Part shown: piece after piece, positions 6,396-60,480 of the stretch
Position numbering within the stretch: the first letter of the stretch is position 1
How the letters are laid out: the number at the start of each line of letters is the position of its first letter
Source: Patescibacteria group bacterium
Lineage (GTDB): Bacteria; Patescibacteriota; Patescibacteriia; UBA9934
Direction of reading: 5' to 3'
Length of the DNA: 64,000 nucleotides
Assembly (NCBI GenBank): GCA_018062825.1
Contig: JAGORL010000003.1
Span: forward strand, 72,333 to 136,332
The notes under the pieces: generated by a model
The model's database searches: none
Told to the model about the DNA's origin: nothing
Seen by the model: the letters and a program-made list of their open reading frames with translations, nothing else
Made by a program: the position numbers and the translations under genes

Positions 6396-6484
6396 TTGCT
6401 TTTATCATAATTTGGCTAACTGTAGCTATTAATTGACGAAAGCTCTGACACTGCTATACTCCTTTCGTTTTAGATGAATATCTT

Positions 6485-7850: not shown

Positions 7851-8144
7851 TTAGCGGGGCTTACAGCCCTGGCCGTGCGGACGATCACCCCCTTCGAAGG
7901 AGGTATTGATCTGCGGCGCGAGATGGCCCGCGCGCACCGCAGCGCGCTGCTCCGGCGTGGCCGCGTGGAAATCCTCGAGCGTTGGCTGTCCGCCATGGAA
8001 GAACGTGGCCGGGATCGTATCCTCAAGGTCATGCTGGTCGAGCTCGTGGATGATCTTGGTCGCGGGGTCTGCGGAAACATCGCGGCGAGGTGGTGGGGTG
8101 AAGCTGGACAAGATAGCCTCCAATTGGCCGCAAAATAGTAGCAA
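7851..8144. other. Short GC-rich fragment with antiparallel ORFs (87 aa on +, 97 aa on -); possible remnant of a foreign high-GC gene
   Basis: A ~300 bp stretch whose G+C is well above both flanks, with high-GC ORFs open on both strands. No start context is convincing for either frame. Confidence 0.35.
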
Positions 8145-8277
8145 AGGTTAGCGGAAATGTAAAGGATAGAGTAGGTCCACTTCGTCCCAGCGGACTACGT
8201 TAGGACTGGAGAGTAGTTAGTAGGGAGCAGGGTTAGGAGTGATGATTCTTTATTACTTTGTTACACTCAGGATATCT

Positions 8278-9129
8278 ATGCGATTTGGAGCCCATGTGTC
8301 AGCGTCAGGTGGTTTATGGAAGGCGAGCATCCCGGCAAAAGCTTTGGGATGTGAGGTTATTCAGATCTTTAGCCGTGCCCCGCAAGCTTGGGCGGCAAAA
8401 CCAATTACAGATGAAGATGCTGAAAAATTTAAAGCCGCTGTACAAGATGCAGGGGTTCAGGCGACCTATATTCACGCCCCATACCTCATCAATCTGGCAT
8501 CAATGAATAACCGTACGCGCCATGGCTCAATCTCGATGCTTCGCCAGGAACTTGAGCGCGGCACGCAGATTGGCGCTGCTGGCATGATGTTTCACCCGGG
8601 ATCTGCTAAAGATGCTGGGCGAGAAAAGGGGGTTGAGATGGTTGTTGAGGGAATTAACAAAATTCTTGATGGCTACACGGGAAGCTGCCAGCTATTGATT
8701 GAGATTTCGGCAGGCGCGGGCGAAATCATGGGCGATACCTTTGAAGAGATAGCGGCCTTTATTAACGGCGCCGAGCGAGGAGCGGAGGTTGGCGTTTGCT
8801 TTGATACGCAGCACGCCTTTGCGTCTGGATACGATCTGCGCACCAAAAAAGCGGTTGACGAGACTTTTGCTTTATTTGATAAGACTATCGGTCTTAAAAA
8901 ACTCGTTGCTAGCCACTGCAATGACTCAAAGGTAGAGTTTCAGGCCCATAAAGATCGCCACGAACATCTTGGCGAAGGCTTCATTGGAGCTGAGGGATTT
9001 AAATATATTGTTCAGCACCCTCAGCTGCAACATATTGATCTTATCCTTGAGACTCCGTATGACGACGCTGGGGCTGACGAAGGTCGCCAGAAGGATTTGG
9101 CACTACTTAAAAAATATCGAGGTGATTAA
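8278..9129 (+). CDS. nfo: Endonuclease IV (AP endonuclease, xylose-isomerase-like TIM barrel)
   Basis: The protein starts MRFGAHVSASGG and contains HAPYLINLAS, as in Nfo. The track ORF begins at a GTG at 8239, but the ATG at 8278 fits the family N-terminus. Confidence 0.85.
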   Translation: MRFGAHVSASGGLWKASIPAKALGCEVIQIFSRAPQAWAAKPITDEDAEKFKAAVQDAGVQATYIHAPYLINLASMNNRTRHGSISMLRQELERGTQIGAAGMMFHPGSAKDAGREKGVEMVVEGINKILDGYTGSCQLLIEISAGAGEIMGDTFEEIAAFINGAERGAEVGVCFDTQHAFASGYDLRTKKAVDETFALFDKTIGLKKLVASHCNDSKVEFQAHKDRHEHLGEGFIGAEGFKYIVQHPQLQHIDLILETPYDDAGADEGRQKDLALLKKYRGD

Positions 9130-10607: not shown

Positions 10608-10798
10608 ATCAGTGGGTAAATACTACTTCCACCCCTAAAAAAAGTCAAACCCTGGCGGAATTAGGTGAGGTGCGGGGTATTGGAGTTAGGGAATAGAGTA
10701 TAGGGTGTGGGGTGCAGGCCCACTTCGTCCTAGCGGACAACGTTGGGGGCGGGGGGGAGCAGTGAGCGTGATTGACAATTTTCAAGGTGGTGAAAAAG

Positions 10799-10876
10799 TT
10801 ATCCCCATTCTGTGCACTCTTATCCCCAATGTGGACAACTTTTCGCTAATCTTTGTCACATTGTTTGTTGTGGATA
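10799..10876. promoter_or_regulatory. oriC element 1: cluster of DnaA boxes upstream of dnaA
   Basis: TTATCCCCA (twice), TGTGGACAA and TGTGGATAT within ~80 bp, followed by an AT-rich tract, directly upstream of dnaA and downstream of rpmH. Confidence 0.7.
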
Positions 10877-10954
10877 TTTTGACTATGATGGCAGCGTCGT
10901 CACGAACAAAGCAGCAGCCGCTTTTGCGGTCGCGCACACGTTGGAATATCGCCT

Positions 10955-12346
10955 ATGAATACGCACGAGTTATGGCAGGCCGTTCTTGGTGAGTTGGAAC
11001 TTAAACTCAGCAAAGCCCACTTCACTACGTGGTTTCGAAATACCTTTATTGCCGAATATCGCACGAACGAGGTAACGATCGGCGTACCGAATAGCATTTC
11101 CCAATCTTGGCTTAAGAATAAGTACCAACGCGACATTCTTGAAGCGATGCAGAACGTTACCAATCAACCAGTACGCGTTCTTGTTTGCCGCATTGAAACA
11201 AAAATTGCTTCACCTCAGCCAATTTCTTTTGAATCTCCGAAGTCCTCAACTTTTTCGACGGAGGAATATGGATTCTCAACAACAAGCGACTCTGTTCCAA
11301 TGCCGCCGCCATCTGGAAATATCGCCATAAATCCAAACTACACATTTAATACCTTTGTTGTAGGTAAGCAGAACGAACTTGCTCACGCCGCAGCCCAGGC
11401 GGTAGCAGCGCAACCGGGCGGCACCTATAATCCGCTTTTTATCTACGGTGGCGTTGGACTTGGTAAAACCCACTTACTTCATGCTATCGCTAACGAAATT
11501 CGCAAGCGCTGGAATGGGGCCAAGATCATGTACGTAACCTGCGAACACTTCACTACAGATTTCATTCACTCGGTTCGCTCCGGTAAAGGAAAAGAGTTCA
11601 AGGATCGTTACCGCAATGTTGATCTTCTTTTGATCGACGATATTCAGTTTATTACCGGTAAAGAGGGTACTCAAGAGGAATTTTTCCATACCTTCAACGC
11701 GCTTCACCAGGATAACAAGCAGATTGTTATCTCTTCAGATCGACCACCGCGCTCGATTGCTGGTCTTGAAAAACGCCTTCAGTCTCGCCTTGAGTGGGGC
11801 ATGCTTGTTGACGTTGGCACTCCAGACCTTGAAACACGGGTAGCGATTCTTGAGCGTAAGTGTATCGAGAAGGGAATAAACCTCACTCGAGAGATCCTGC
11901 ACTATGTTGCCTCGACGATCATCTCGAATGTTCGAGAGCTTGAAGGAGCCCTGAATAAAATCGTAGCCGTACACCAGTTCCGCAACATGGAGCCAAGTTT
12001 GGAATCCGTTAAGCCAATAATCGCCAGCTTTGAGAGTGACAACGTGAAAAAGACCGTTACTCCACGCCAAGTTATTAATATTGTTGCTGAATACTTTGAC
12101 ATTCAGATTGATGACGTTCTTGGTAAGAGCCGTGAAAAGCGTCTTGCATTCCCTCGGCAGATCATCATGTATCTTCTGCGTGAAGAGATGGCGAGTTCAT
12201 ATCCAACGATCGGAACAGAGCTTGGTGGGCGAGATCACACCACTGCAATGCACGCGCACAATAAAATTTCGGGACTTGTTGATACGGATGAGAAGCTTCA
12301 AAAAGATCTTGAGCTTATTAAGCAACGTTTGTACGCTAGCGGTTAA
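10955..12346 (+). CDS. dnaA: Chromosomal replication initiator DnaA
   Basis: Full domain set: AAA+ Walker A GGVGLGKTHL, Walker B LLLIDDIQF, and a C-terminal DNA-binding domain. Confidence 0.95.
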   Translation: MNTHELWQAVLGELELKLSKAHFTTWFRNTFIAEYRTNEVTIGVPNSISQSWLKNKYQRDILEAMQNVTNQPVRVLVCRIETKIASPQPISFESPKSSTFSTEEYGFSTTSDSVPMPPPSGNIAINPNYTFNTFVVGKQNELAHAAAQAVAAQPGGTYNPLFIYGGVGLGKTHLLHAIANEIRKRWNGAKIMYVTCEHFTTDFIHSVRSGKGKEFKDRYRNVDLLLIDDIQFITGKEGTQEEFFHTFNALHQDNKQIVISSDRPPRSIAGLEKRLQSRLEWGMLVDVGTPDLETRVAILERKCIEKGINLTREILHYVASTIISNVRELEGALNKIVAVHQFRNMEPSLESVKPIIASFESDNVKKTVTPRQVINIVAEYFDIQIDDVLGKSREKRLAFPRQIIMYLLREEMASSYPTIGTELGGRDHTTAMHAHNKISGLVDTDEKLQKDLELIKQRLYASG

Positions 12347-14476: not shown

Positions 14477-14636
14477 TATAGCTTATTTTAGCCACTTTGT
14501 CAAGGAAAAATGCCTATAATTTGGCTAATATTAGCTAAATAGCTTTAATAAGCTTCGCTAGCATTAGCCATGTTTTAGTATTTGGGTAGAAAATTGCTTT
14601 ACATCCCTGATTTTTTGGTACACTTTAGATGAATAT

Positions 14637-32113: not shown

Positions 32114-32977
32114 ATGCAGATTCGCAAAGCGATTATTCCGGTAGCTGGTATGGGGACACGATTCCTGCCCGCAACCAAGGCTCAGCCAAAAGAAATGTTG
32201 CCGGTCGTTGATAAGCCTGTTATTCAATACATCGTTGAAGAGGCGGTGGCGGCTGGTATTGAGGAGATTATTTTCGTGACCGCCATGGGCAAGAGGGCGC
32301 TTGAAGATCATTTTGATCGTAACTTTGAACTTGAGTATCGCTTAGAGCAAAAGAAGAAGCTTAAGGAGCTTGAGAGTGTGCAGCGTATAGGTAAGCTTGC
32401 TCGTTTTGCTTTCGTTCGTCAGCAAAAGCCACTTGGGGATGGTCATGCAATTTTAGCGGCTGCGCCTTTTGTTGGGAAAGATGAAGCGGTAGCTGTGTTA
32501 TTTGGTGATGACATTATTACCGGGAAACAACCGGCTATTGGTCAACTTATTGATGTTTACAATAAGTATCAGGATCCCGTGGTAGCTATTCAGGAGGTGC
32601 CGAAACAAAGTGTTTCTAGTTATGGTGTTATTGACGGTACAAAATTGGATGCGCATACCTGGCAGGTTCAGGATTTTATGGAGAAGCCTGATCCGAAAGA
32701 CGCTCCATCAAACTTGGCTGCTGTCGGAAGATATGTGATTACGCCAGAGATCATGCAGATTTTGGTTGATCAAAAACCGGGTAAGGATGGCGAGATTCGT
32801 TTAGCTGATGCCTTCATGACGTTTTTGAAGGAGCGACCAATGTATGGCTGTAAGTTTGAAGGCAATCGATATGATTGCGGAAATAAGTTGCAGTTCATCA
32901 TTGCACAAATTGAACTTGGACTTGAGCACGGTGAGGTGAAGGCTGAGCTTGCTAAGTACTTGAAGAAGATGAAATAG
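32114..32977 (+). CDS. galU: UTP-glucose-1-phosphate uridylyltransferase
   Basis: N-terminal signature KAIIPVAGMGTRFLPATKAQPKEMLPVVDKPVIQY and the expected length. Confidence 0.85.
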   Translation: MQIRKAIIPVAGMGTRFLPATKAQPKEMLPVVDKPVIQYIVEEAVAAGIEEIIFVTAMGKRALEDHFDRNFELEYRLEQKKKLKELESVQRIGKLARFAFVRQQKPLGDGHAILAAAPFVGKDEAVAVLFGDDIITGKQPAIGQLIDVYNKYQDPVVAIQEVPKQSVSSYGVIDGTKLDAHTWQVQDFMEKPDPKDAPSNLAAVGRYVITPEIMQILVDQKPGKDGEIRLADAFMTFLKERPMYGCKFEGNRYDCGNKLQFIIAQIELGLEHGEVKAELAKYLKKMK

Positions 32978-33027
32978 GGTATAGAGAAGGGAGTAGGAAG
33001 TAGTTAGTAGGGGGGGGTAGTGCGAGG

Positions 33028-33062
33028 AAAAGAGCACGCGACGATGAGTCGGTGCTCTTTTG
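33028..33062 (+). terminator. Intrinsic terminator of galU
   Basis: AAAAGAGCACGCGACGATGAGTCGGTGCTCTTTTG. Confidence 0.6.
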
Positions 33063-33082
33063 ATTTCTGTTACAATACAATC

Positions 33083-34477
33083 ACTATGCGCATGCGAAGA
33101 ATTTTTGGCGCCGTCCTTCTTGGCGCAACACTTGTCATGGTAGGTGCTGGCTGTAGTGGTGATAGTGCAAGTACGGCAAATACCACTAAGCCGGTAACGC
33201 TTACCTATTGGCGAGTATTTGATGATGAAGATGCATTTACTGAGATCATTTCTTCTTATCGAGTTTTGCATCCGAACGTAAAGATTGAGTATCGCAAACT
33301 CCGTGCAGAAGAATATGAGGAAGAGCTTTTGAAGGCGCTCGCAAAAGGTGAGGGGCCAGATATTTTTTCTGTACACAATTCACGTGTAGCTGAGTTCCAG
33401 GATCTTTTGCAGCCAATGCCGGCATCCGTACAGATTTCTACGCTTGAAGTTCAGGGATCGCTTCGTAAAGAGACGGTCTATGTACCAAAGACTGTTACGT
33501 TGTATACGCAAAAGCAATTGGAACAGCAATTTGTTGATGTTGTAGCTGAGGACGCGGTATTGCCGTATCAGCCTGATGAAGATACGCCTGCTACTGACCG
33601 TATTTACGGTTTGCCACTTTCGGTAGACACAATGGCGCTTTATTACAATCAGGATCTTCTTAACGCGGCTGGCATTGCCGAGCCACCAACTACTTGGGAT
33701 GCGTTTCAAGAGGCAGTGATTAAGCTTACAAAGATTGATGCCAATGGTCAGGTTACGCAGTCCGGTGCCGCGCTTGGTACATCTGAGAACGTTGAGCGAT
33801 CAAGTGATATTTTGGCACTTCTCATGATGCAGAATGGCACGCAGATGACTGATGATCGGGGGCGGGTTGCCTTTCAGACTATTCCGGTAGGAACGGAGCG
33901 CGGTGTTTTTCCAGCGCTTGATGCTACGCGTTTCTATACTGATTTTGCCAACCCAGCTAAAGAAACATATACCTGGAACGATAGCTTCCCGAATTCGTTT
34001 GATGCTTTTACTCGTGGTCAAACGGCTTTTTTCCTTGGTTATAGTTATCATGCGCCACTTATTACCGCGGCTAATCCGAAATTACGTTTTGAAGTTAGTG
34101 CGGCGCCACAGATTTCCGGTGGTCGACAGGTTAATTATGCTAACTACTGGATAGAAGGCGTTTCTAAGAATACAGATGCGAGTAACTATGCTTGGGATTT
34201 TCTCGCGTACGCTGCTAAGGCTGAGAATGTAGCTTCATATCTTGAGGAGGCCCAAAAACCTACGGCGCTTAGGAGCGTGATCAATGCGCAGCTTGAGGAT
34301 GATTTTCTAGGTGTATTTGCTTCCCAGATTCTTCTTGCAGATTCTTGGTATCACGGAAAGGATGCGCTTGCAGCTGAACAGGCGTTCTATGATCTTATTG
34401 ATGCGATTTTGAACGGCTCAGCTGAACCGGAAGATGAGGTAGAGTCAGCGGCTCGTATTATTTCGCAGACGTATTAG
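33083..34477 (+). CDS. ABC transporter extracellular solute-binding lipoprotein (family 1, sugar-type)
   Basis: Lipoprotein signal peptide (LVMVGAGCSG) followed by an SBP_bac_1-like fold. Start placed at a Met preceding the signal peptide. Confidence 0.7.
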   Translation, partial: TMRMRRIFGAVLLGATLVMVGAGCSGDSASTANTTKPVTLTYWRVFDDEDAFTEIISSYRVLHPNVKIEYRKLRAEEYEEELLKALAKGEGPDIFSVHNSRVAEFQDLLQPMPASVQISTLEVQGSLRKETVYVPKTVTLYTQKQLEQQFVDVVAEDAVLPYQPDEDTPATDRIYGLPLSVDTMALYYNQDLLNAAGIAEPPTTWDAFQEAVIKLTKIDANGQVTQSGAALGTSENVERSSDILALLMMQNGTQMTDDRGRVAFQTIPVGTERGVFPALDATRFYTDFANPAKETYTWNDSFPNSFDAFTRGQTAFFLGYSYHAPLITAANPKLRFEVSAAPQISGGRQVNYANYWIEGVSKNTDASNYAWDFLAYAAKAENVASYLEEAQKPTALRSVINAQLEDDFLGVFASQILLADSWYHGKDALAAEQAFYDLIDAILNGSAEPEDEVESAARIISQTY

Positions 34478-34501
34478 GAAGTAGTTAGTAGGGAGTATTT
34501 G

Positions 34502-34527
34502 CAAAAAAGCCCTGACGGGCTTTTTTG
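34502..34527 (+). terminator. Intrinsic terminator of the solute-binding-protein gene
   Basis: AAAAAAGCCCTGACGGGCTTTTTTG. Confidence 0.65.
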
Positions 34528-34548
34528 CTTGGTGTATACTTTTTGTAT

Positions 34549-35067
34549 ATGCAGGGTCGACGCGCCTTTTTTTTCATCCCGATTGTTCTTGGCTTGTTCT
34601 TTAGTTTTGTACCGGTGCAAGTTCAAGCGCAGGGTGAGGTTGAATCAGAATTTCAGGATATTTTAAGTCAGGGAATTGTCTTTGCCGGCATCTGTGATAG
34701 CGCCACGGCTCCATGTGCGTGTCGGGATGTTGGCCAGTGTCAGTTGGATGATATTTTGCAGTTATTTGTGAATGTGAGCATTCTGATTCTTGGTATCAGC
34801 GGATCGATCGTGCTTCTCATGTTTGTATGGGGTGGCTTGCAGTGGATTTTATCGCAAGGCAATCCAAGCATGATTGAAAGTGGTAAAAATACCATGATTA
34901 ATGCTGCTATTGGTCTGGCGATTATTTTCGGCTCGTACGCTATGATCAATATTCTTATTTCTGTAGCGACCGGGCAAGGTCCGGCAGCTTCGCCAACGAT
35001 TGAGGGCACTATTGAAGGCGCGGTTCCTGGTAGTAATCCTGGTGCGGTAGTTAATACCGTTGAATAA
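34549..35067 (+). CDS. TrbC/VirB2-like pilin-family protein, paralog 1 of 6
   Basis: Signal peptide, Cys-containing variable region, then conserved TM1-(WGGLQWILSQGNP)-basic loop-TM2, shared with the next five genes. Confidence 0.6.
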   Translation: MQGRRAFFFIPIVLGLFFSFVPVQVQAQGEVESEFQDILSQGIVFAGICDSATAPCACRDVGQCQLDDILQLFVNVSILILGISGSIVLLMFVWGGLQWILSQGNPSMIESGKNTMINAAIGLAIIFGSYAMINILISVATGQGPAASPTIEGTIEGAVPGSNPGAVVNTVE

Positions 35068-37254: not shown

Positions 37255-37305
37255 GTTTTATAAATAGCGAACGCCCCAGTTCTCCGAAGAGAATGGGGCG
37301 TGAGA

Positions 37306-37911
37306 TCACCGAGTGGGACACCGGCCGAGATTGAACTCGGAGCGGCGGCTCCACAGAGTGCTGTCCTTCATGATGTGGGCGAGGCTGTTGCAGCTCCCGA
37401 CCTTGTTGCCGGCAACCGTGGCGGGGCCAGCAGCGGTAACGGCCATGGAGTTCAGTGCGAACACTGCGATCCCGTTGTATACGCTGATGGTCTTAGAGCT
37501 TTCCGGCACAGCGCCACCGTAGGTGGAACCGGACAGTTGGACGCGCGGCGTGGACAGGATGGTCCAGGCCGAGCGACCGCTCGGAATGCAACTCACGAAT
37601 TCGGTGGGTGACACCCAGAGGCCGATGGCGATCCGGGTTTCGATCCCGCTTTGTTCGGTGAGGGTCATGACGGCGCTCGGATTTCCCGATCCGTCGAGGT
37701 TCGGGCGCAGACACCACTGGGTGGTGTTGCGCACCTCGAGACACAGCGGGTTGCTGTCGCAGCCCGCGGGCGGCGAGAGCACCCACTCGTTCTGGACGGT
37801 GGGGATGAACAACACCTGCGCGTTGTTCGTGCTTCCGGCACCCGCCAGGGCCGCCGTGGGGGCGAAGAAGGCGAGGACGAGGGTGAACAACGCGATGAGG
37901 GTGCGGATCAT
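37306..37911 (-). CDS. Secreted Cys-containing protein A of the GC-rich island
   Basis: Signal peptide MIRTLIALFTLVLAFFAPTAALA, six Cys, GC3-rich codons, and a GGAGG Shine-Dalgarno before the ATG at 37911. The track ORF extends further to 37962. Confidence 0.6.
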   Translation of the reverse strand: MIRTLIALFTLVLAFFAPTAALAGAGSTNNAQVLFIPTVQNEWVLSPPAGCDSNPLCLEVRNTTQWCLRPNLDGSGNPSAVMTLTEQSGIETRIAIGLWVSPTEFVSCIPSGRSAWTILSTPRVQLSGSTYGGAVPESSKTISVYNGIAVFALNSMAVTAAGPATVAGNKVGSCNSLAHIMKDSTLWSRRSEFNLGRCPTR

Positions 37912-38006
37912 GGGAACCTCCGAACTTGAAAGGGCGAGTGAACTCTGAGGCCTCGGCATCATGATTGATGCTGGTGCCAGTGGAGTGCCCTTCTTGCGAA
38001 AGGCGA

Positions 38007-38090
38007 GTTAGCTAGTTGCGAACGTCCAGGCTCCGTAGAGCATGATGGCTGCGATGGCGAAGAAGAAGATTGTGACGATTGACGCGGTCA
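38007..38090 (-). CDS. 27-aa single-TM hydrophobic peptide (MTASIVTIFFFAIAAIMLYGAWTFATS)
   Basis: Hand-found ORF between island genes B and A on the same strand, preceded by an AAGGAA Shine-Dalgarno 5 nt upstream. Below the ORF-track size cutoff. Confidence 0.35.
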
Positions 38091-38193
38091 TGTGGTTCCT
38101 TAGGTGTGTAACCCGCAGACAGCTCATCTTGAGTGATGAACGGTCAGTAGGGTGCCCGTTCGGACTTCTTGGAAGAAGCCGAACGGGACGTAG

Positions 38194-38826
38194 TCACTCT
38201 GCGAGCGCGTCGTTCGCGGCGCGGAGCGAGACCACTTCGCTCTCGAGCTCGCGGACGCGGGCGTCCGTGGCGGAGGAGGTGGTGGTCGACGGCGCGGGCG
38301 AGGCGGGCGGCGGGGTGATCTGGCCCATCGAGGCGGACTGGAACGCGAGCGTTCCCATCTGGCCGAGACCCGGCATGGCCATGCCGGGCATGAACATGCC
38401 GCCGTTGCCAACCGAGATGGCGGCGTACGGGGCGGCCTGGCCGGTGGCGATGAGGTCGCCGTCGGCGTAGGTCGCGACGTTCGCTTCGATGCCCGCGAGG
38501 GAGACGTCACGGCGGGTGCCGGCGTCGACCTGGCGCGTCGCGGCGTCGATGCAGCCGACGCCTTGCCCCATCATCTCGATGGTGTTCTTGGCGCTGACGT
38601 GCTCGGCGTCGATCGTGACACCGCACGCGTTGACCGACACCGTGGGGCGTCCGGTCAGCTGCGTGTTGCTCGTGGCGTCGACTCGGCCGCTGGTCTGCGT
38701 GCGGGGTGCAGCGGGGCTGCGCTCGGCGACCGTTGCGGTCGGGCGGCTGGTCGCGTTCGGGTTGCCACCGGCGAGGGCCGGGGTGGCGAAGGCGACGAGG
38801 GCGGCGAGGGTGATGAAGCGGATCAT
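38194..38826 (-). CDS. Secreted low-complexity protein B of the GC-rich island
   Basis: Signal peptide MIRFITLAALVAFATPALAGG, a Pro/Ala/Thr-rich region, and a C-terminal coiled-coil-like tail. GAGG Shine-Dalgarno before the ATG at 38826. Confidence 0.55.
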   Translation of the reverse strand: MIRFITLAALVAFATPALAGGNPNATSRPTATVAERSPAAPRTQTSGRVDATSNTQLTGRPTVSVNACGVTIDAEHVSAKNTIEMMGQGVGCIDAATRQVDAGTRRDVSLAGIEANVATYADGDLIATGQAAPYAAISVGNGGMFMPGMAMPGLGQMGTLAFQSASMGQITPPPASPAPSTTTSSATDARVRELESEVVSLRAANDALAE

Positions 38827-39203
38827 GGATGACCTCACAGTGGAAGGAGCGGATACTTTACCTGGCAGGTATTAGCCAGTTCAAGTAACACATATTTATA
38901 GCACAAATTTTGGAAAAAGTCAAGGGGGTTAGTGAGATAATTTGGCTAATATTAGAAGAAAATGTGAAATCGGAGATCGGGGATCGGAGATGGATTGAAA
39001 TGCTTTTTTGTGATTGCTACACGGAGATTTCTCAACTCGGCATTCAGACTCGTTCGGGATCGCAAGACGATACATGTAATTGTTTGTTGAGACCTTCCCG
39101 AACGAAAGTTAGGGATCTTGGTTATGTGTTGGCTCTTGGCACGAAGGCTAGACCCCTCACTTGCGTTCGGGGAAGTTTTCAATACTTTTAATAATGGCAT
39201 TTT

Positions 39204-39221
39204 ATAGCTAATATTAGCTAT
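39204..39221. promoter_or_regulatory. 18-bp perfect palindrome ATAGCTAATATTAGCTAT (candidate operator) upstream of the island gene C promoter
   Basis: Perfect dyad. Related sites occur at 14521-14537 (TTGGCTAATATTAGCTA), 38941-38955 (half-site) and 6411-6430, all in divergent promoter regions. Confidence 0.5.
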
Positions 39222-39239
39222 TTTTGTTTACTTATCCCA

Positions 39240-39268
39240 TTGACAAAACGTCGATTTTATGCTACTAT
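39240..39268 (+). promoter_or_regulatory. Sigma70-type promoter TTGACA-17-TACTAT for island gene C
   Basis: Consensus -35 and near-consensus -10 with a 17-nt spacer, ~85 nt upstream of the ATG at 39354. The hexamers match the rRNA promoter at 57222-57250. Confidence 0.6.
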
Positions 39269-39353
39269 ATAGTGTTCGCAAGTGCGGCACATCGCCCATT
39301 TCGCGAAAGCAACTTCACAATCTGCAGTCACAAAGTGACAATCGGAGATCGCC

Positions 39354-41384
39354 ATGGCCACGGAGTCTACTGGAGACAATCGTCGTATCGTTGAGCAGAC
39401 GCTTGGCGAGATCGGAGAAGAGTGGCTCGAGACGATCGGTAAGGGGATCAATCCCATGCCGTTCCTCGCGACGCCCCACTTCTGGGGTCCGCCGGCGCGA
39501 GCAATCGCGAAGCGCGTGGCTAAGCATCCGAACACGATCCTGGGCGGCTTTTCTTTTCTGGGCGCTGTTGCGCAGGAAAAGTTGCCCTTCGGTCGGGATG
39601 TCAACCTCATCGTCGCCACGATCTTGCGCGGTATCCCGCGTCTCGCTGAGAATTCGTTGGCGGCACATGGTGTGACCGCTGACAACATCGAACAGAAGAT
39701 TGTCGAGTGGGCTGTGCAGCTCGCGAAGGAGACCCCCATGACGACGACCATCGAGTCGAAGCCGGAGGCTCCCGCGACGCCCTCGGCACCCGCGTTCGAG
39801 CTCACGCAGGAGCAGGGCGATGCCCTCGGGCTTCTGCACCGCATCCTTGAGGTTCGCCTCACGGATGCGTTCAACTTCCCGACCGAGCCGCGGCGGTACC
39901 AGGCGCTGTTGCGCCGGCTGTCGGCGAGCCCGATCGCGGTTCAGTTCCTCCCGAAGCTCAAGAAGAAGGAGATCGATGCCACCCTCGCGCACTTGCGCAC
40001 CCTCCAGACCTGGACGGCGCCCAACGTGAGCGAGGACCGGCCGACCGACGAGATGGCCGCGCAGGCGCGGATCGAGGTGGAGAAGGTGCTCTGGCGCTAC
40101 ATGCGCTTCGAGGCCGCCCTCTTCGCCCATGATCACCACCTGAACGGCGCCTATTCGATCGTCATCGGGGCGCTCGATCGTCTCGATGCGAACGTGACGG
40201 ACGAACAGCGTCGCCAGTTCCGGGAGTTTTGGGAGCGTCAGCTCCAGAACCTCTCGGAGGCCGGCATCCCCGGCATGACCCGTGACTTCGCCGAGAACTC
40301 GGCGCGAGTCATCCGGGAACAGGCGGAGCGGCTGTTCGGCTTCACGGTCGACGTCGGCCGACAGGTGTTCGAGTTTGCGGCCTGGGCGTTTGTGGGGGTC
40401 AATAGCCTCCTCATCGCCGGGATCGCGCTCTGCCTCATGGGTATCACCATGGTGGCCGAGCAGACGTTCGTGGCTCCGGCGCTTCTCGGACTCCTCTTCG
40501 TGATCCAGGTCGGAATCGCTGGGCGTCTCCTCACGAGCTCTCTGAGCACGGCGTGGAAGGCGGCCATCGTCATCGCGGCGGCAGCGCTCCTCGTGTTCCA
40601 GGTGTCGTTCGTGTCTGCGCTTCTTGCGCACCCGAGCGTTCTCCTCTTCCAGGTGGGGATCTGCCTCATGTGGATCTGGTACTTCTTCGTCGGACTGTTC
40701 GACGCGGTCGTCAACGGCTTTGCGGCCTTGACGCGCGGAGAGCGGTTCGGCCGGGATGCCGGAACGATCACGAGGGCGTGGATCGCGACGCGCAATGCCA
40801 TCATCGGCCGCACGGTCGAGGGGCAGGGCACGGCGGATGTGCCGGTACAGTTCCGGTGGTTCCGCAATTGGTCGCCGACCGTCGTCATCATCGTCTCCCT
40901 CGTGGGTGGTGTTGGTAGCGCGACGCAGGCGTTCTGGTTCGGTGCTTCGGGCGGCTTGTTCTCGGCGCTCATGTTGCTTGGCTCCGGCTGGCTCACGGGC
41001 GGTTCCGCGATCATGTACACCCGTGGCAATCGGCAGTTGACGGCAGCGGACAAGGATAACTTCTGGTCGCTCGACTTGCGGCAGAAGTACGCCAAGCGGG
41101 CGTTCCTCGTTCCCGGTGTCCTCGGCCAGGTGATGCTCGTCGTTGGCCTTGCGACCCTCTTCGTTCCTTGGTTCAAGGGCGAGGCTCTCGGTCAGCAGGT
41201 CACGGTGGCGCAGCACGTAGTGGTCGAGCCCGCAGCTAAGCAGGAAGCGACGCCCGTCATCTCGACGAGCGACGCGGCCTGCGAGAAGGTCGAGCGAATG
41301 CTCCAGGCGTCTCCGGACGTTTGCACGCTCTCGCCCGGCCTCAAGAGCTGCGCCACTGCCAAGCGGTGCGGACTGCTGAAGTAA
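39354..41384 (+). CDS. 676-aa polytopic membrane protein of the GC-rich island (soluble N-terminal ~330 aa plus ~8 TM helices)
   Basis: Strong GC3 codon bias (ctc/gcg/acg/atc/gag) unlike the flanks, GGAGA Shine-Dalgarno, and no family motif recognised. The antisense 690-aa ORF is a high-GC artefact. Confidence 0.65.
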   Translation: MATESTGDNRRIVEQTLGEIGEEWLETIGKGINPMPFLATPHFWGPPARAIAKRVAKHPNTILGGFSFLGAVAQEKLPFGRDVNLIVATILRGIPRLAENSLAAHGVTADNIEQKIVEWAVQLAKETPMTTTIESKPEAPATPSAPAFELTQEQGDALGLLHRILEVRLTDAFNFPTEPRRYQALLRRLSASPIAVQFLPKLKKKEIDATLAHLRTLQTWTAPNVSEDRPTDEMAAQARIEVEKVLWRYMRFEAALFAHDHHLNGAYSIVIGALDRLDANVTDEQRRQFREFWERQLQNLSEAGIPGMTRDFAENSARVIREQAERLFGFTVDVGRQVFEFAAWAFVGVNSLLIAGIALCLMGITMVAEQTFVAPALLGLLFVIQVGIAGRLLTSSLSTAWKAAIVIAAAALLVFQVSFVSALLAHPSVLLFQVGICLMWIWYFFVGLFDAVVNGFAALTRGERFGRDAGTITRAWIATRNAIIGRTVEGQGTADVPVQFRWFRNWSPTVVIIVSLVGGVGSATQAFWFGASGGLFSALMLLGSGWLTGGSAIMYTRGNRQLTAADKDNFWSLDLRQKYAKRAFLVPGVLGQVMLVVGLATLFVPWFKGEALGQQVTVAQHVVVEPAAKQEATPVISTSDAACEKVERMLQASPDVCTLSPGLKSCATAKRCGLLK

Positions 41385-41388
41385 CAAA

Positions 41389-41419
41389 TACCTCCTTGCC
41401 CACGCGGGGCGAGGAGGTA
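41389..41419 (+). terminator. Terminator-like hairpin after gene C
   Basis: TACCTCCTTGCCCACGCGGGGCGAGGAGGTA, GC-rich with a weak U-tract. Confidence 0.4.
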
Positions 41420-41506
41420 CTCATCCCCTGATTCGAGCACTCGCTCGGGTCGGGGGATTCTCTTTTTAGGGAGTAGGAAGTAGTTAGTAGAAAGTAGGCC
41501 AGGTCA

Positions 41507-42736
41507 TCACTTACGTTCGGGAAGGGGAGTTGATTGAGCGCGACTTAACATCATTGCAAAGAGTAGTGCGCCGATGATTGCGAGATCATTTTTCATTAAT
41601 GGGACGTCTACCAAGCCGTGAATACAAAGTGTGCACAAGGCAGCAAAAGCGGCTAAGGTTAGTGGATCATGATTGCTTGACCTGACGACTTTTGCGGTTG
41701 CGAGCATAAATGCGATGAGCGCGATGAGGCCAAGAGCACCGAGCTCGACCCAGACGTTTAGGATGATGTTGTGCGGGTATTGGAAGGTCTCAAATAGAGT
41801 TGCATCATGGTATGGAGTAATGGCGATTGGGAAGCCGTTTAAGCCAGCACCTTTGAGCGGGTGATCTTTGAGAAGTTCAAAGGTTTCTTGCCAGGTATGG
41901 AGGCGCGCTTGGCCTGACCAGTCACGGAGCAGGATTTTTTCTCGAGTGATTGGGATGAGTAAAGCAGTGACGCCAAGAAGACAGGTCGCTCCAATAAGGG
42001 CGATTTTTTGTTTGCTTGAAATGTTGGCGCATAGGAGGGAGCACAGCATGCCGATTGGAATGGCGATGAGTGCGGCTTCGGTTTGGGCAAGAAGAATTGC
42101 GAGTATGCCGATGGCGCTCAAGCTAAGAAGCGACTTTCGATGCTTTTTTGTGAGGATGGCAAGAGTAGTAGTTAGCGCGACGATGGGCGCTACAAAAAGG
42201 CCAAGTGCGTTTGGATACTCAAAGAAGCCGGTAGCACGACGCTCGATATCCCACGGGAGCGGAATTCCGAATCCGGTTGTCACTTGAAATAAGGCAAAGA
42301 CGGTCATGATGCCGACACTTGCCCCAAGAGCGCCAATGGCCTCTAGATAGTCATTTTTTGCTTTCCACGTGACGCGCATCATTATGAGTACGGCCATTGG
42401 TTCTAGGTAAAATGCTTTCCAAATGCCGAGTGCGGAAAAGATGTCGGGAGCGAGGGCGGCGCTGACTGAGGCTGCGGCAATAAGTAGTAGGAGAGGGGTG
42501 CGATATGGACCAAGAATCTGCAAGGGAAAGAGTTTCCAGGCTTGGTACTTGATCGTAAAAATGATGATGCTAGCAATAACGAGGAGCTCAAGCAGGGTTG
42601 TTGGGATTGGACCAATGTTAAAACGCAGGAGATATGTAGGTAGTAGCGCCATGAGTACCTTGAGGGCCAGTGGAAAATCACGCCAAGCAATAATGGCGTA
42701 TCCAATGACGATCAGTGCGGCCAAGATGAGCAACAT
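41507..42736 (-). CDS. O-antigen ligase/Wzy-like polytopic membrane protein
   Basis: ~10 TM helices and a periplasmic loop with YPHNIILNVWVELGALG, typical of the Wzy_C/O-antigen ligase family. Confidence 0.55.
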   Translation of the reverse strand: MLLILAALIVIGYAIIAWRDFPLALKVLMALLPTYLLRFNIGPIPTTLLELLVIASIIIFTIKYQAWKLFPLQILGPYRTPLLLLIAAASVSAALAPDIFSALGIWKAFYLEPMAVLIMMRVTWKAKNDYLEAIGALGASVGIMTVFALFQVTTGFGIPLPWDIERRATGFFEYPNALGLFVAPIVALTTTLAILTKKHRKSLLSLSAIGILAILLAQTEAALIAIPIGMLCSLLCANISSKQKIALIGATCLLGVTALLIPITREKILLRDWSGQARLHTWQETFELLKDHPLKGAGLNGFPIAITPYHDATLFETFQYPHNIILNVWVELGALGLIALIAFMLATAKVVRSSNHDPLTLAAFAALCTLCIHGLVDVPLMKNDLAIIGALLFAMMLSRAQSTPLPERK

Positions 42737-57250: not shown

Positions 57251-57408
57251 TCCGCCGCACTGTTCGTGAACAAAAGTTCACTTCAGAAGAGCTTTTTGGA
57301 CGAAAGTCCAGCGCGCCCTTCTGAACGTTTACAACTAAATATTCTACGAAGAAAAAGCAAACGCACTGATATCATGACCAAAAGGTCATGCGTACTCAGT
57401 GAATGGAG

Positions 57409-60418
<3,010 letters not shown>

Positions 60419-60480
60419 TCCATTCACTGAGTGCGTTAAATCGCACGCGTTTGCTAAACGAATAAAAAAACATTTCATTG

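What the first reader, a model, noticed from the sequence alone, without database searches (positions are those of the whole stretch)
8209..8227. C-depleted G/A/T-only motif GGAAGTAGTTAGTAGG(GAG): four same-strand copies just 3' of plus-strand stop codons, trailing both GC-rich insertions
Copies were found by eye at 8209-8227, 32988-33017, 34477-34495 and 41468-41498. All read in the same orientation. All lie 0-80 nt after a plus-strand stop: the GC fragment, galU, the solute-binding-protein gene and island gene C. Two copies sit upstream of the intrinsic terminator of their genes, inside the 3' UTR. The surrounding 40-60 nt are almost C-free and carry stacked SD-like GGGAG/AGGAAG words. This could be a 3'-UTR RNA-stability or protein-binding element, or a recombination or cassette-boundary site. 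Its presence after both high-GC insertions is notable.
Basis: seen in the sequence. Interest (0 to 1): 0.6.

Follow-up and report, generated by a model that had tools for sequence, protein, structure and literature searches.

The report
Solo arms of a TAG-heptad repeat
Four same-strand copies of a short repeat built from 7-base units (AGTAGNN) lie between genes of this candidate-phyla-radiation bacterium; they look like single arms of a hairpin-forming intergenic repeat family that resembles REP elements, puts a TAG stop codon in every reading frame, and in other genomes fills the gaps between ribosomal-protein genes and even sits inside 23S rRNA.

Summary
AGTAGTTAGTAG occurs exactly four times, always on the + strand and always between genes; chance expects about 0.24 near-matches to the 16-mer. 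The motif is a run of 3-5 imperfect heptads (AGTAGNN), so TAG falls in all three reading frames.

- Copies 2 and 3 lie between a stop codon and an intrinsic terminator, and copy 3 supplies the stop.
- Copy 4 lies after a strong terminator, between convergent genes.
- Copy 1 lies in a divergent promoter region, because the "GC fragment" is a minus-strand gene.
- No evidence supports a cassette boundary.

The same heptads occur in many phyla. In other genomes two arms in the fixed order GTAG-arm…CTAC-arm (16 of 16 pairs) form hairpins of about 66 nt with compensatory base changes. These hairpins fill the stop-to-start spacers of ribosomal-protein operons and sit inside 23S rRNA in the helix-98 region. 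In 835 kb from relatives, TAG is the most 7-periodic of all 64 trinucleotides.

The window holds only solo arms, with no hairpin. They are absent at the one orthologous junction that could be checked, and the motif occurs nowhere in the relatives' loci.

Best reading: lineage-specific, REP-like insertional repeats. They are tolerated because they stop translation at their edge. Function and means of spread are unproven.

The parts
8205..8239 (+). Copy 1: ACTGGAG AGTAGTT AGTAGGG AGCAGGG TTAGGAG. Two perfect AGTAG heptads plus decayed ones, with TAG in all 3 frames. It lies between the start of the minus-strand small GC-rich gene and the nfo promoter (TGtTACACT at 8259-8267; ATG at 8279).
32985..33012 (+). 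Copy 2: AGAAGGG AGTAGGA AGTAGTT AGTAGGG. It begins 8-15 nt after the galU stop (TAG at 32975-32977) and sits upstream of the galU terminator hairpin (about 33031-33058). It is part of a 63-nt C-free tract, 32960-33022.
34473..34500 (+). Copy 3: ATTAGGA AGTAGTT AGTAGGG AGTATTT. Its first TAG (34475-34477) is the stop codon of the solute-binding-protein gene. The terminator at 34501-34528 follows directly.
41465..41499 (+). Copy 4: TTTAGGG AGTAGGA AGTAGTT AGTAGAA AGTAGGC, the longest array. It lies downstream of the two terminator hairpins of island gene C and 9 nt from the stop (41507-41509) of the convergent minus-strand Wzy_C gene.
10684..10766 (+). Decayed relative of the copy 1 region, between rpmH (minus strand) and the DnaA boxes upstream of dnaA. 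It carries heptad-spaced TAGs (TAGGGAATAGAGTATAG), then the 29-nt companion repeat, then GGGAGCAGTGAGCG in place of AGTAGTTAGTAG.
   Evidence: local alignment with the copy 1 region, z = 8.6
8173..8201 (+). The 29-nt companion repeat AGGTCCACTTCGTCCCAGCGGACTACGTT, immediately upstream of copy 1. Its second copy is at 10716-10744 (90% identical). It is conserved in strain L138.

Best explanation
The four sites are copies of one short dispersed repeat made of 3-5 imperfect heptanucleotide units (AGTAGNN). They are solo 'GTAG arms' of a family of TAG-heptad elements that is common in candidate-phyla-radiation (Patescibacteria) genomes and also occurs in Bacteroidota, Fibrobacterota, Acidobacteriota and viral contigs.

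In its full form the element has two arms in the fixed order (AGTAGNN)x4-5, loop, (NNCTACT)x4-5. These fold into a hairpin of about 66 nt made of 4-bp GUAG/CUAC helices. The hairpin begins at a stop codon and ends a few bases before the next start codon.

The family behaves like REP/REPIN-type insertional intergenic repeats:
- it is gained in particular lineages;
- it is multi-copy within a genome;
- it is largely excluded from coding sequence;
- it is tolerated in operon spacers and in a variable rRNA helix.

Because 7 = 1 mod 3, any three units place TAG in all three frames. Translation entering from outside therefore ends at the edge of the element.

In this window the copies are single arms with no hairpin. 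I infer that they spread by copying, not by independent slippage, since they share the same spacer order GA-TT-GG. I also infer that they persist as near-neutral passengers. At most they serve as the stop codon or back-up stops (the SBP stop; downstream of galU).

Shown: the repeat, its heptad structure, its three-frame TAGs, its contexts, its lineage specificity, and the hairpin family elsewhere.

Inferred: homology of the solo arms to the hairpin family, copy-and-insert spread, and lack of a dedicated function here.
For: The repeat is real and heptadic.

Common origin of the copies: the spacers are identical in order, and the copies share 16-23 identical nt.

Lineage-specific gain: there is no copy in 835 kb from 80 relatives, and none at the orthologous junction downstream of the SBP gene.

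Contexts in the window are heterogeneous, namely divergent, tandem x2 and convergent. This argues against one RNA-level role.

The 19-mer AGTAGGAAGTAGTTAGTAG is identical to the 5' arm of 67-69-nt elements in a Saccharibacteria MAG:
- There are six copies with 91% column identity. Each folds at -29 to -36 kcal/mol, with z from -3.4 to -7.3.
- They lie at the S10|L3, L4|L23, L2|S19, S19|L22, IF3|L35 and L35|L20 junctions. Gene identities come from Pfam for the S10 operon and from reading the L35 and L20 sequences.

Hairpins of the same kind lie inside 23S rRNA in three CPR MAGs. The window's own 23S lacks them.

A covariance model finds full hairpins in several phyla. Across 37 matches 92% of cells pair, 14 of 25 pairs change on both sides, and 0 of 500 shuffles reach the observed values.

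All 16 inverted pairs have the GTAG arm first.

TAG/CTA is the most 7-periodic of all 64 trinucleotides in the unbiased relatives set: 28 arrays against a background of 1.8. Of these arrays, 18 of 25 are intergenic although 87% of the sequence is coding.

REP behaviour that matches (PMC3733652): a GTAG tag, location downstream of ORFs, inverted dimers, and termini that supply TAG stop codons.
Against: - No transposase, empty site, target duplication or presence/absence polymorphism was seen. The strain contigs are either 100% identical or end at the motif.
- There are only four copies, and their shared orientation is not significant (p about 0.125).
- The covariance model finds no 3' arm or hairpin in the window (best E = 0.88, at an unrelated site). 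Homology of the solo arms to the hairpin family therefore rests on a shared 19-mer, which could also arise by convergence on AGTAGNN.
- Perfect conservation of 12-23 nt across copies could instead reflect selection for a binding site.
- Sense and antisense strands of the hairpins fold equally well, so the level at which they act (RNA or DNA) is unresolved.
Confidence: 0.5

Rival explanations
1. Selected three-frame translational stop (an 'insulator'). The heptad spacing is maintained because it places TAG in every frame. Read-through or frameshifted ribosomes are then released before they reach the terminator hairpin or the next gene.
For: - TAG falls in all three frames in every copy.
- Copy 3 supplies the SBP stop codon, and copy 2 lies 8-15 nt after the galU stop.
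- In other genomes 11 of 34 co-oriented arrays supply the stop codon, and all 16 pairs have the TAG-bearing arm facing outward on both strands.
- Lineages with different heptad units share only the TAG: TAGCTGT, TAGAAAT, AGTAGNN.
Against: - Copies 1 and 4 are not placed where plus-strand ribosomes would arrive.
- Solo arms elsewhere show no orientation preference relative to the upstream gene: 20 same against 25 opposite, and 8 against 9 in the unbiased set.
- The motif is not conserved at the orthologous junction.
- This idea does not explain the conserved AG before TAG, or the occurrence inside rRNA.
Confidence: 0.15
2. Binding site for a protein that reads a 7-nt register. On RNA this could be a HutP-like recognition of UAG-N4-UAG-N4-UAG, or binding by Csp/S1-type OB folds. 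On DNA it could be heptad iterons like those bound by ribbon-helix-helix omega/ParB proteins.
For: - The pattern UAG-N4-UAG-N4-UAG is present in copies 2, 3 and 4.
- The tract is predicted to be unpaired just upstream of terminators at copies 2 and 3.
- The AGTAG core is invariant while the spacers vary.
- Heptamer repeats have been proposed as sites for S1, Csp or CsrA in Beggiatoaceae (PMC4679880).
- The HutP and omega precedents are from my own knowledge and were not tested here.
Against: - No candidate binding protein was identified; only 64 kb of the genome is available.
- The contexts are heterogeneous: promoter region, 3' UTR, and downstream of a terminator.
- Distances to the downstream -10 boxes vary (39, 61 and 44 nt, read from the sequence).
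- The motif is absent from relatives.
- Arrays of 10-15 units, and copies inside rRNA, occur elsewhere.
Confidence: 0.15
3. Recombination site or cassette boundary that marks the ends of horizontally acquired GC-rich DNA.
For: - Copy 4 sits at the right junction of a clearly foreign island (GC3 of 0.83-0.92 against 0.39-0.49 for native genes).
- Copy 1 lies next to a GC-rich gene that is hypervariable between strains.
Against: - The variable segment near copy 1 ends about 100 nt before the motif and lies inside the gene.
- There are no heptads at the left junction of the island.
- Copies 2 and 3 flank native genes.
- No recombinase gene is adjacent.
- The motif has no inverted-repeat core.
Confidence: 0.05
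4. Neutral simple-sequence repeats that arose independently at each site by replication slippage, in C-depleted intergenic DNA.
For: - Homogeneous GTAG-heptamer arrays of up to 15 units exist in viral and Bacteroidota/Fibrobacter contigs.
- This strand is generally poor in C.
Against: - The four copies share the same non-identical unit order (GA, TT, GG spacers) and 16-23 identical nt. Slippage at independent sites would not reproduce this.
- Chance expectation is 0.24.
Confidence: 0.1

Closest known systems
GTAG-tagged REP / REPIN elements (repetitive extragenic palindromes; Di Nocera et al. 2013, PMC3733652)
   Same: Both are short, multi-copy intergenic repeats that contain GTAG. Both lie mostly downstream of ORFs, between same-direction or convergent genes. 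Both often occur as inverted pairs that fold into larger hairpins, and their termini can supply the TAG stop codon. Both have a sporadic, lineage-specific distribution.
   Different: A REP has one unpaired GTAG tag next to a 20-40-bp GC-rich palindrome. Here GTAG is iterated every 7 nt and forms the body of the arm, and the window copies are not palindromic at all. No RAYT transposase was seen. REPs were reported mainly in Proteobacteria, not in CPR.
TAACTGA heptanucleotide direct repeats of Beggiatoaceae, Cyanobacteria and Bacteroidetes (MacGregor 2015, PMC4679880)
   Same: Both are intergenic tandem heptamers that give stop codons in all three frames in the forward orientation. Both sometimes overlap the upstream stop codon, occur in ribosomal-protein operons, are patchily distributed across phyla, and have no known function.
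   Different: The unit differs (AGTAGNN with variable spacers, against an exact TAACTGA). TAACTGA sets lie mostly just upstream of start codons, and only one inverted set was reported. The window copies are not next to start codons, although the Nomurabacteria locus L053 shows that arrangement in the CUAC orientation.
Intervening sequences / expansion hairpins of 23S rRNA (from my own knowledge) and the variable helix 98 of CPR 23S rRNA (PMC9297842)
   Same: In L056, L037 and L006 the heptad hairpin is an extra stem-loop inside the 23S gene, at a helix known to vary or be lost in CPR.
   Different: The window's own 23S has no such insertion. Processing by RNase III was not tested.
HutP anti-terminator binding site, UAG-N4-UAG-N4-UAG (from my own knowledge)
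   Same: It has the same trinucleotide and the same 7-nt spacing, and lies upstream of a terminator at copies 2 and 3.
   Different: HutP sites sit in a 5' leader and overlap the terminator they control. Here the tract lies at the 3' end of genes or outside transcripts altogether, and no hutP gene is known in this organism.

Membership tests
GTAG-tagged REP/REPIN | A 20-40-bp imperfect palindrome able to form a stem-loop | tested here: not met
   The heptad tract is unpaired in all folds. The covariance model of the full hairpin finds nothing at the four sites. The feature is met by the related elements in L048/L021 and elsewhere.
GTAG-tagged REP/REPIN | A single unpaired GTAG tetranucleotide at one end of the palindrome | tested here: inconclusive
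   GTAG is present 2-4 times per copy, but as the repeated body of the element and not as a terminal tag.
GTAG-tagged REP/REPIN | Multi-copy, intergenic, mainly downstream of ORFs between same-direction or convergent genes; termini may supply a TAG stop | tested here: met
   There are four intergenic copies in 64 kb. Three of the four lie in tandem or convergent spacers, and copy 3 supplies the SBP stop codon. Copy 1 is the exception, lying in a divergent spacer.
GTAG-tagged REP/REPIN | An associated RAYT (Y1/HUH) transposase in the genome | not testable with these tools
   Only 64 kb of a MAG contig of at least 197 kb is available. The window ORFs were not all scanned.
Heptanucleotide tandem direct repeats (TAACTGA type / long simple sequence repeats) | Head-to-tail units of period 7, at least 2-3 copies | tested here: met
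   GTAG/TAG arrays occur only at period 7. Tandem Repeats Finder reports period 7 with 4.6 copies at 41467-41498.
Heptanucleotide tandem direct repeats (TAACTGA type / long simple sequence repeats) | Identical units, as replication slippage would produce | tested here: not met
   The units differ in their last two bases (GA, TT, GG, AA, GC), but in the same order in different copies.
Heptanucleotide tandem direct repeats (TAACTGA type / long simple sequence repeats) | Stop codons in all three frames in the forward orientation, hence excluded from same-strand ORFs | tested here: met
   The TAG frames are 0/1/2 in every copy.
HutP-type RNA site | Three UAG separated by 4-nt spacers | tested here: met
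   The regex finds hits at 32994, 34475, 41467, 41474 and 41481.
HutP-type RNA site | Located in a 5' leader and overlapping the terminator it controls; a hutP gene present | tested here: not met
   The copies lie at gene 3' ends, behind a terminator, or in a promoter region. Presence of a hutP gene is not testable from 64 kb.
Intrinsic terminator | The motif forms the GC-rich hairpin followed by a U tract | tested here: not met
   The terminator hairpins are separate sequences, 3' of copies 2 and 3 and 5' of copy 4.
Recombination site / cassette boundary (attC-like or att-like) | The site lies at both ends of the inserted DNA, or at the exact edge of the strain-variable DNA, and has an inverted-repeat core | tested here: not met
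   There are no heptads at the left junction of the island. The variable segment ends about 100 nt before copy 1. The motif has no inverted repeat.

The most novel reading that the evidence does not exclude
TAG-heptad arms and hairpins may be a previously unrecognised, cross-phylum class of self-insulating intercistronic modules. The outward-facing GUAG arm would stop translation in every frame. The hairpin would act in mRNA processing, stability or translational coupling. The G-free CUAC arm would serve as a leader for the next cistron that does not depend on a Shine-Dalgarno sequence. The class would spread by a mechanism, still unknown, that targets stop codons and variable rRNA helices. 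On this reading the window's copies are working solo stop arms.
Probability: 0.2. Interest if true: 0.75.

Novelty: new variant of a known kind. Interest (0 to 1): 0.5.

Why it matters
For this window the practical result is modest. The motif is a real repeat, but it is not a uniform 3'-UTR signal and not a marker of island boundaries.

The wider pattern it led to is more interesting. TAG is the most 7-periodic of all 64 trinucleotides in the CPR sequence sampled here. Hairpins built from heptads fill the stop-to-start spacers of ribosomal-protein operons and occur inside 23S rRNA. The order of the two arms is invariant.

CPR bacteria have tiny genomes, often lack a normal anti-Shine-Dalgarno sequence, and carry many rRNA insertions. 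A repeat that supplies a stop, a hairpin and a G-free leader in one unit could therefore be an unrecognised part of how their operons are punctuated. It could equally be a new type of selfish mini-element. Either possibility can be tested with existing metagenomes and with the few cultivated Saccharibacteria.

Tried and rejected
- **Rfam:** no family matched at the motif sites or at the full hairpins.
- **More copies:** a profile search found none in the window or in the relatives.
- **Hidden 3' arm:** a covariance-model search of the window with filters off found none.
- **RNA structure of the solo arms:** none was predicted.
- **Strand asymmetry of the hairpin folds** (sense against antisense), meant to separate RNA-level from DNA-level selection: the energies were similar, so the test was inconclusive.
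- **Promoter element:** rejected, because distances to the downstream -10 boxes vary and terminators intervene.
- **Orientation tied to replication:** cannot be tested. dnaA and the DnaA boxes lie at about 10.8 kb, yet copy 1, to their left, has the same orientation as the other copies, and the GC skew does not change sign.
- **Seed of a small RNA derived from a 3' UTR:** no complementary site exists in the window.
- **Cassette boundary:** rejected.
- **Family matches for the GC-rich ORFs:** Pfam (gene C and the plus-strand frame of the small ORF) and NCBIfam (all of them) gave nothing.
- **Strain polymorphism:** Logan and NCBI contigs are 100% identical, or in the case of L138 end exactly where copy 1 begins.
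- **Extending the genome beyond the window:** only 456 nt were gained.
- **Ideas considered from memory and dropped without testing:** primase initiation sites (CTA), DnaA-trios, Rho utilisation sites on the antisense strand, and RelE cleavage at UAG.

Full report
**1. The observation**

The 16-mer GGAAGTAGTTAGTAGG has four hits with at most 3 mismatches, at 8209, 32996, 34477 and 41476. All are on the + strand. Dinucleotide-preserving shuffles expect 0.24, and none of 100 shuffles reaches four. The 12-mer AGTAGTTAGTAG is exact in all four. Copies 2 and 4 share 23 of 23 nt, copies 2 and 3 share 19 of 19, and copies 1 and 3 share 16 of 16. In a self-comparison of the window it is the strongest dispersed repeat that is neither coding nor palindromic. 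An nhmmer profile of the four finds no fifth copy; the next hit has E = 6.7.

**2. What the motif is made of**

Read in register, each copy is a run of heptads:
- Copy 1: ACTGGAG AGTAGTT AGTAGGG AGCAGGG
- Copy 2: AGAAGGG AGTAGGA AGTAGTT AGTAGGG
- Copy 3: ATTAGGA AGTAGTT AGTAGGG AGTATTT
- Copy 4: TTTAGGG AGTAGGA AGTAGTT AGTAGAA AGTAGGC

GTAG or TAG arrays of three or more units exist in the window only at period 7 and only on the + strand. Tandem Repeats Finder independently calls copy 4 period 7 with 4.6 copies. Because 7 = 1 mod 3, every copy carries TAG in all three frames.

The C-poor context is real, at 4-14% C against 21% overall. It is also a property of the whole strand: there are 49 C-free runs of at least 24 nt against 8 G-free runs, and the GC skew is strongly positive.

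**3. Organism and gene context**

The window's DnaA and trigger factor are identical to proteins of an NCBI MAG named 'Patescibacteria group bacterium', from a 197.6-kb contig. The window carries dnaA with DnaA boxes, rpmH, six T4SS-pilin genes, and an unlinked 23S-5S rRNA pair.

- **Copy 2** lies 8-15 nt after the galU stop and ahead of the galU terminator.
- **Copy 3** starts with the TAG that ends the solute-binding-protein gene, and the terminator follows directly.
- **Copy 4** lies downstream of two strong hairpins. The second (41423-41458) has 16 pairs and a T run. Copy 4 is 9 nt from the stop of a convergent minus-strand Wzy_C gene.
- **Copy 1** needs a correction. A 98.3%-identical strain (L138) diverges sharply inside the 'GC fragment'. 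In both alleles the minus-strand frame is open and homologous (…FTPP…DPAT.II..LDQ.DL…RPHGQGCKPR*), while the plus-strand frame is broken in L138. The fragment is therefore a small minus-strand gene. Copy 1 lies between it and the promoter of the nfo-like AP-endonuclease gene (TGtTACACT at 8259-8267; ATG at 8279).

The four contexts are thus divergent, tandem, tandem and convergent. In every fold the heptad tract is unpaired. This variety argues against a single 3'-UTR RNA function.

**4. Cassette-boundary idea**

Island genes A, B and C are clearly foreign (GC3 of 0.83-0.92 against 0.39-0.49 for native genes). However, the left junction of the island has no heptads. The strain-variable DNA near copy 1 ends about 100 nt before the motif. 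Copies 2 and 3 flank native genes. I found no support for a boundary or recombination role.

**5. Relatives**

Eighty metagenome loci encode relatives of the solute-binding protein at 40-63% identity, 835 kb in total. They contain no copy of the motif, and the junction downstream of the SBP gene lacks it. The motif was therefore gained in this lineage. Copy 1 is part of a segment of about 85 nt that is homologous (z = 8.6) to a tract between rpmH and the DnaA boxes. There the heptads have decayed to AGCAGTGAGCG.

**6. The wider family**

A scan of one genome per species for TAGGAAGTAGTTAGTAG returned 56 loci from very different phyla, several with multiple hits per MAG. Nearly all hits lie within longer AGTAGNN arrays, and many are followed by inverted CTACT heptads.

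In a 1.2-Mb Saccharibacteria contig, six elements of 67-69 nt with 91% column identity have this layout: stop codon, (AGTAGNN)x4, loop, (NNCTACT)x4, about 10 nt, then ATG. They lie at the S10|L3, L4|L23, L2|S19 and S19|L22 junctions (Pfam), and on both sides of rpmI. Each folds at -29 to -36 kcal/mol, with z from -3.4 to -7.3. Their 5' arm matches the window's AGTAGGAAGTAGTTAGTAG over 19 nt. The L3|L4 spacer holds a different heptad hairpin, of the TAGTGAA/CACT type.

In three other CPR MAGs the hairpin lies inside the 23S rRNA gene. In two of them it is in the helix-98 region, where the window's 23S has only the short native helix. Helix 98 is known to be variable or lost in CPR (PMC9297842).

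A covariance model built from the six elements finds full hairpins in CPR, Bacteroidota, Acidobacteriota and Auribacterota loci, and in 3 of the 80 relatives. Across 37 matches, 92% of cells pair and 14 of 25 pairs show changes on both sides. No shuffle of 500 reaches the observed values, and the slid controls collapse. The alignment was fitted to the model, which favours the structure. The same model finds nothing at the window's four sites, so the window holds solo arms only.

**7. Statistics on the class**

- In the 835 kb not selected for the motif, TAG/CTA is the most 7-periodic of all 64 trinucleotides: 28 arrays against a mean of 1.8 at other periods that are not multiples of 3. Next come AGC/GCT and GTA/TAC. 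The base before TAG differs between lineages.
- 18 of 25 arrays are intergenic although 87% of the sequence is coding. Orientation relative to the upstream gene is even, 8 against 9.
- In the 56 loci, all 16 inverted pairs have the GTAG arm first (p about 1.5e-5).
- 11 of 34 co-oriented arrays supply the upstream stop codon.
- Solo arms show no orientation preference, 20 against 25.
- In a Nomurabacteria locus, three solo arms lie 0-5 nt upstream of start codons in the G-free CUAC orientation.
- Viral contigs also carry many GTAG-heptamer arrays, mostly homogeneous.

**8. Interpretation**

The best-supported reading is that the window's four sites are solo arms of a lineage-specific, REP-like insertional repeat family built from TAG heptads. 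The shared spacer order shows that the copies have a common origin and did not arise by independent slippage.

The family matches published REP behaviour (PMC3733652): a GTAG motif, location downstream of ORFs, inverted dimers, and TAG termini that serve as stop codons. It also matches TAACTGA heptamer repeats (PMC4679880): three-frame stops and presence in ribosomal-protein operons. It fails the defining REP feature of a palindromic body with a single GTAG tag, and no transposase was seen.

The invariant arm order and the three-frame TAGs suggest that the element insulates itself from incoming translation. That would explain why it is tolerated at gene ends, in operon spacers and in rRNA. Whether the solo arms in this window do anything beyond ending translation (copy 3, and perhaps copy 2) is not shown.

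The rival explanations are a selected three-frame stop, a protein-binding site with a 7-nt register, a recombination boundary, and independent slippage. They are weighed in the Rival explanations section of this report.

**9. Limits**

- Only 64 kb of the genome could be read.
- Strain contigs gave no presence/absence polymorphism.
- The scan that found the 56 loci was selected for one 17-mer.
- Gene calls in the fetched loci were a simple longest-ORF heuristic.
- E-values from the covariance model are rough.
- The literature search covered open-access text only. It found no earlier description of GTAG- or TAG-heptad hairpins.

Noticed in passing
window 10770-10950: This is a likely oriC. DnaA-box-like words (TTATCCCCA x2, TGTGGACAA, TGTGGATAT) lie between rpmH (minus strand, start near 10612) and dnaA (10955-12346). 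The GC skew does not change sign here, and genes to the left are mostly on the + strand.
   Followed up: partly
window 14519-14540, 39204-39221, 38937-38955, 6407-6425: A palindromic, operator-like repeat built on GCTAATATTAGC; a perfect 18-nt palindrome, ATAGCTAATATTAGCTAT, lies at 39204-39221. Two copies sit in the AT-rich spacer inside the foreign GC-rich island, and others lie upstream of native genes. This suggests one regulator acting on both.
   Followed up: no
window 37260-41460: A foreign high-GC island directly after a cluster of six T4SS-pilin genes. Genes A (37306-37911, minus strand) and B (38194-38826, minus strand) have signal peptides. Gene C (39354-41384, plus strand) encodes a 676-aa multi-pass membrane protein. 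GC3 is 0.83-0.92 against 0.39-0.49 for native genes. There are no Pfam or NCBIfam matches. The island is present and identical in two other samples.
   Followed up: partly
window 7851-8144 (minus strand); L138 5500-5700: A small GC-rich minus-strand gene (GC3 of 0.72) whose central part, about 230 nt, is hypervariable between two strains that are 98.3% identical elsewhere. Its N- and C-terminal ends are conserved. The likely start is a TTG after a GGAGG, about 30 nt inside the listed ORF.
   Followed up: partly
window 38969-38991 and 39338-39353: A second period-7 tandem repeat, ATCGGAG x3.3, carrying GGAG words. A related AATCGGAGATCGCC lies directly upstream of the ATG of island gene C.
   Followed up: no
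window 33068-33089, 8259-8281, 34535-34552: Genes appear to start 8-11 nt after an extended -10 box (TGtTACAAT, TGtTACACT, TATACT), with little or no Shine-Dalgarno sequence. This indicates very short leaders or leaderless mRNAs.
   Followed up: no
window 57404-60424: The 23S rRNA is not linked to a 16S gene within the window. It carries insertions of about 59 nt, about 59 nt and about 23 nt relative to the bacterial model, within the first 350 model positions. There is no heptad hairpin at helix 98.
   Followed up: partly
L056 1826-1915, L037 5078-5149, L006 7435-7525: GTAG-heptad hairpins lie inside the 23S rRNA genes of three CPR MAGs. Two of them are orthologous insertions in the helix-98 region. 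At the base of the stem there is one compensatory change (C-G in L037, U-A in L056).
   Followed up: partly
L048 3366-3424: The L3|L4 spacer of the same S10 operon holds a hairpin made of a different heptad unit, (TAGTGAA/AGTGNNN) facing (NNNCACT). Heptad hairpins of more than one sequence type therefore coexist in one operon.
   Followed up: no
L053 576-606, 1308-1338, 7929-7959: In a Nomurabacteria MAG, three solo arms lie 0-5 nt upstream of the ATG of minus-strand genes. In the mRNA they read as G-free CUAC heptads, a possible leader that does not depend on a Shine-Dalgarno sequence.
   Followed up: partly
window 39094-39178 and 41505-41530: A short repeat, CACTT(R)CGTTCGGG(R)AAG, occurs at 39165 and 41509, with an inverted partner at 39094. 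The copy at 41509 overlaps the 3' end of the Wzy_C ORF, just past copy 4.
   Followed up: no
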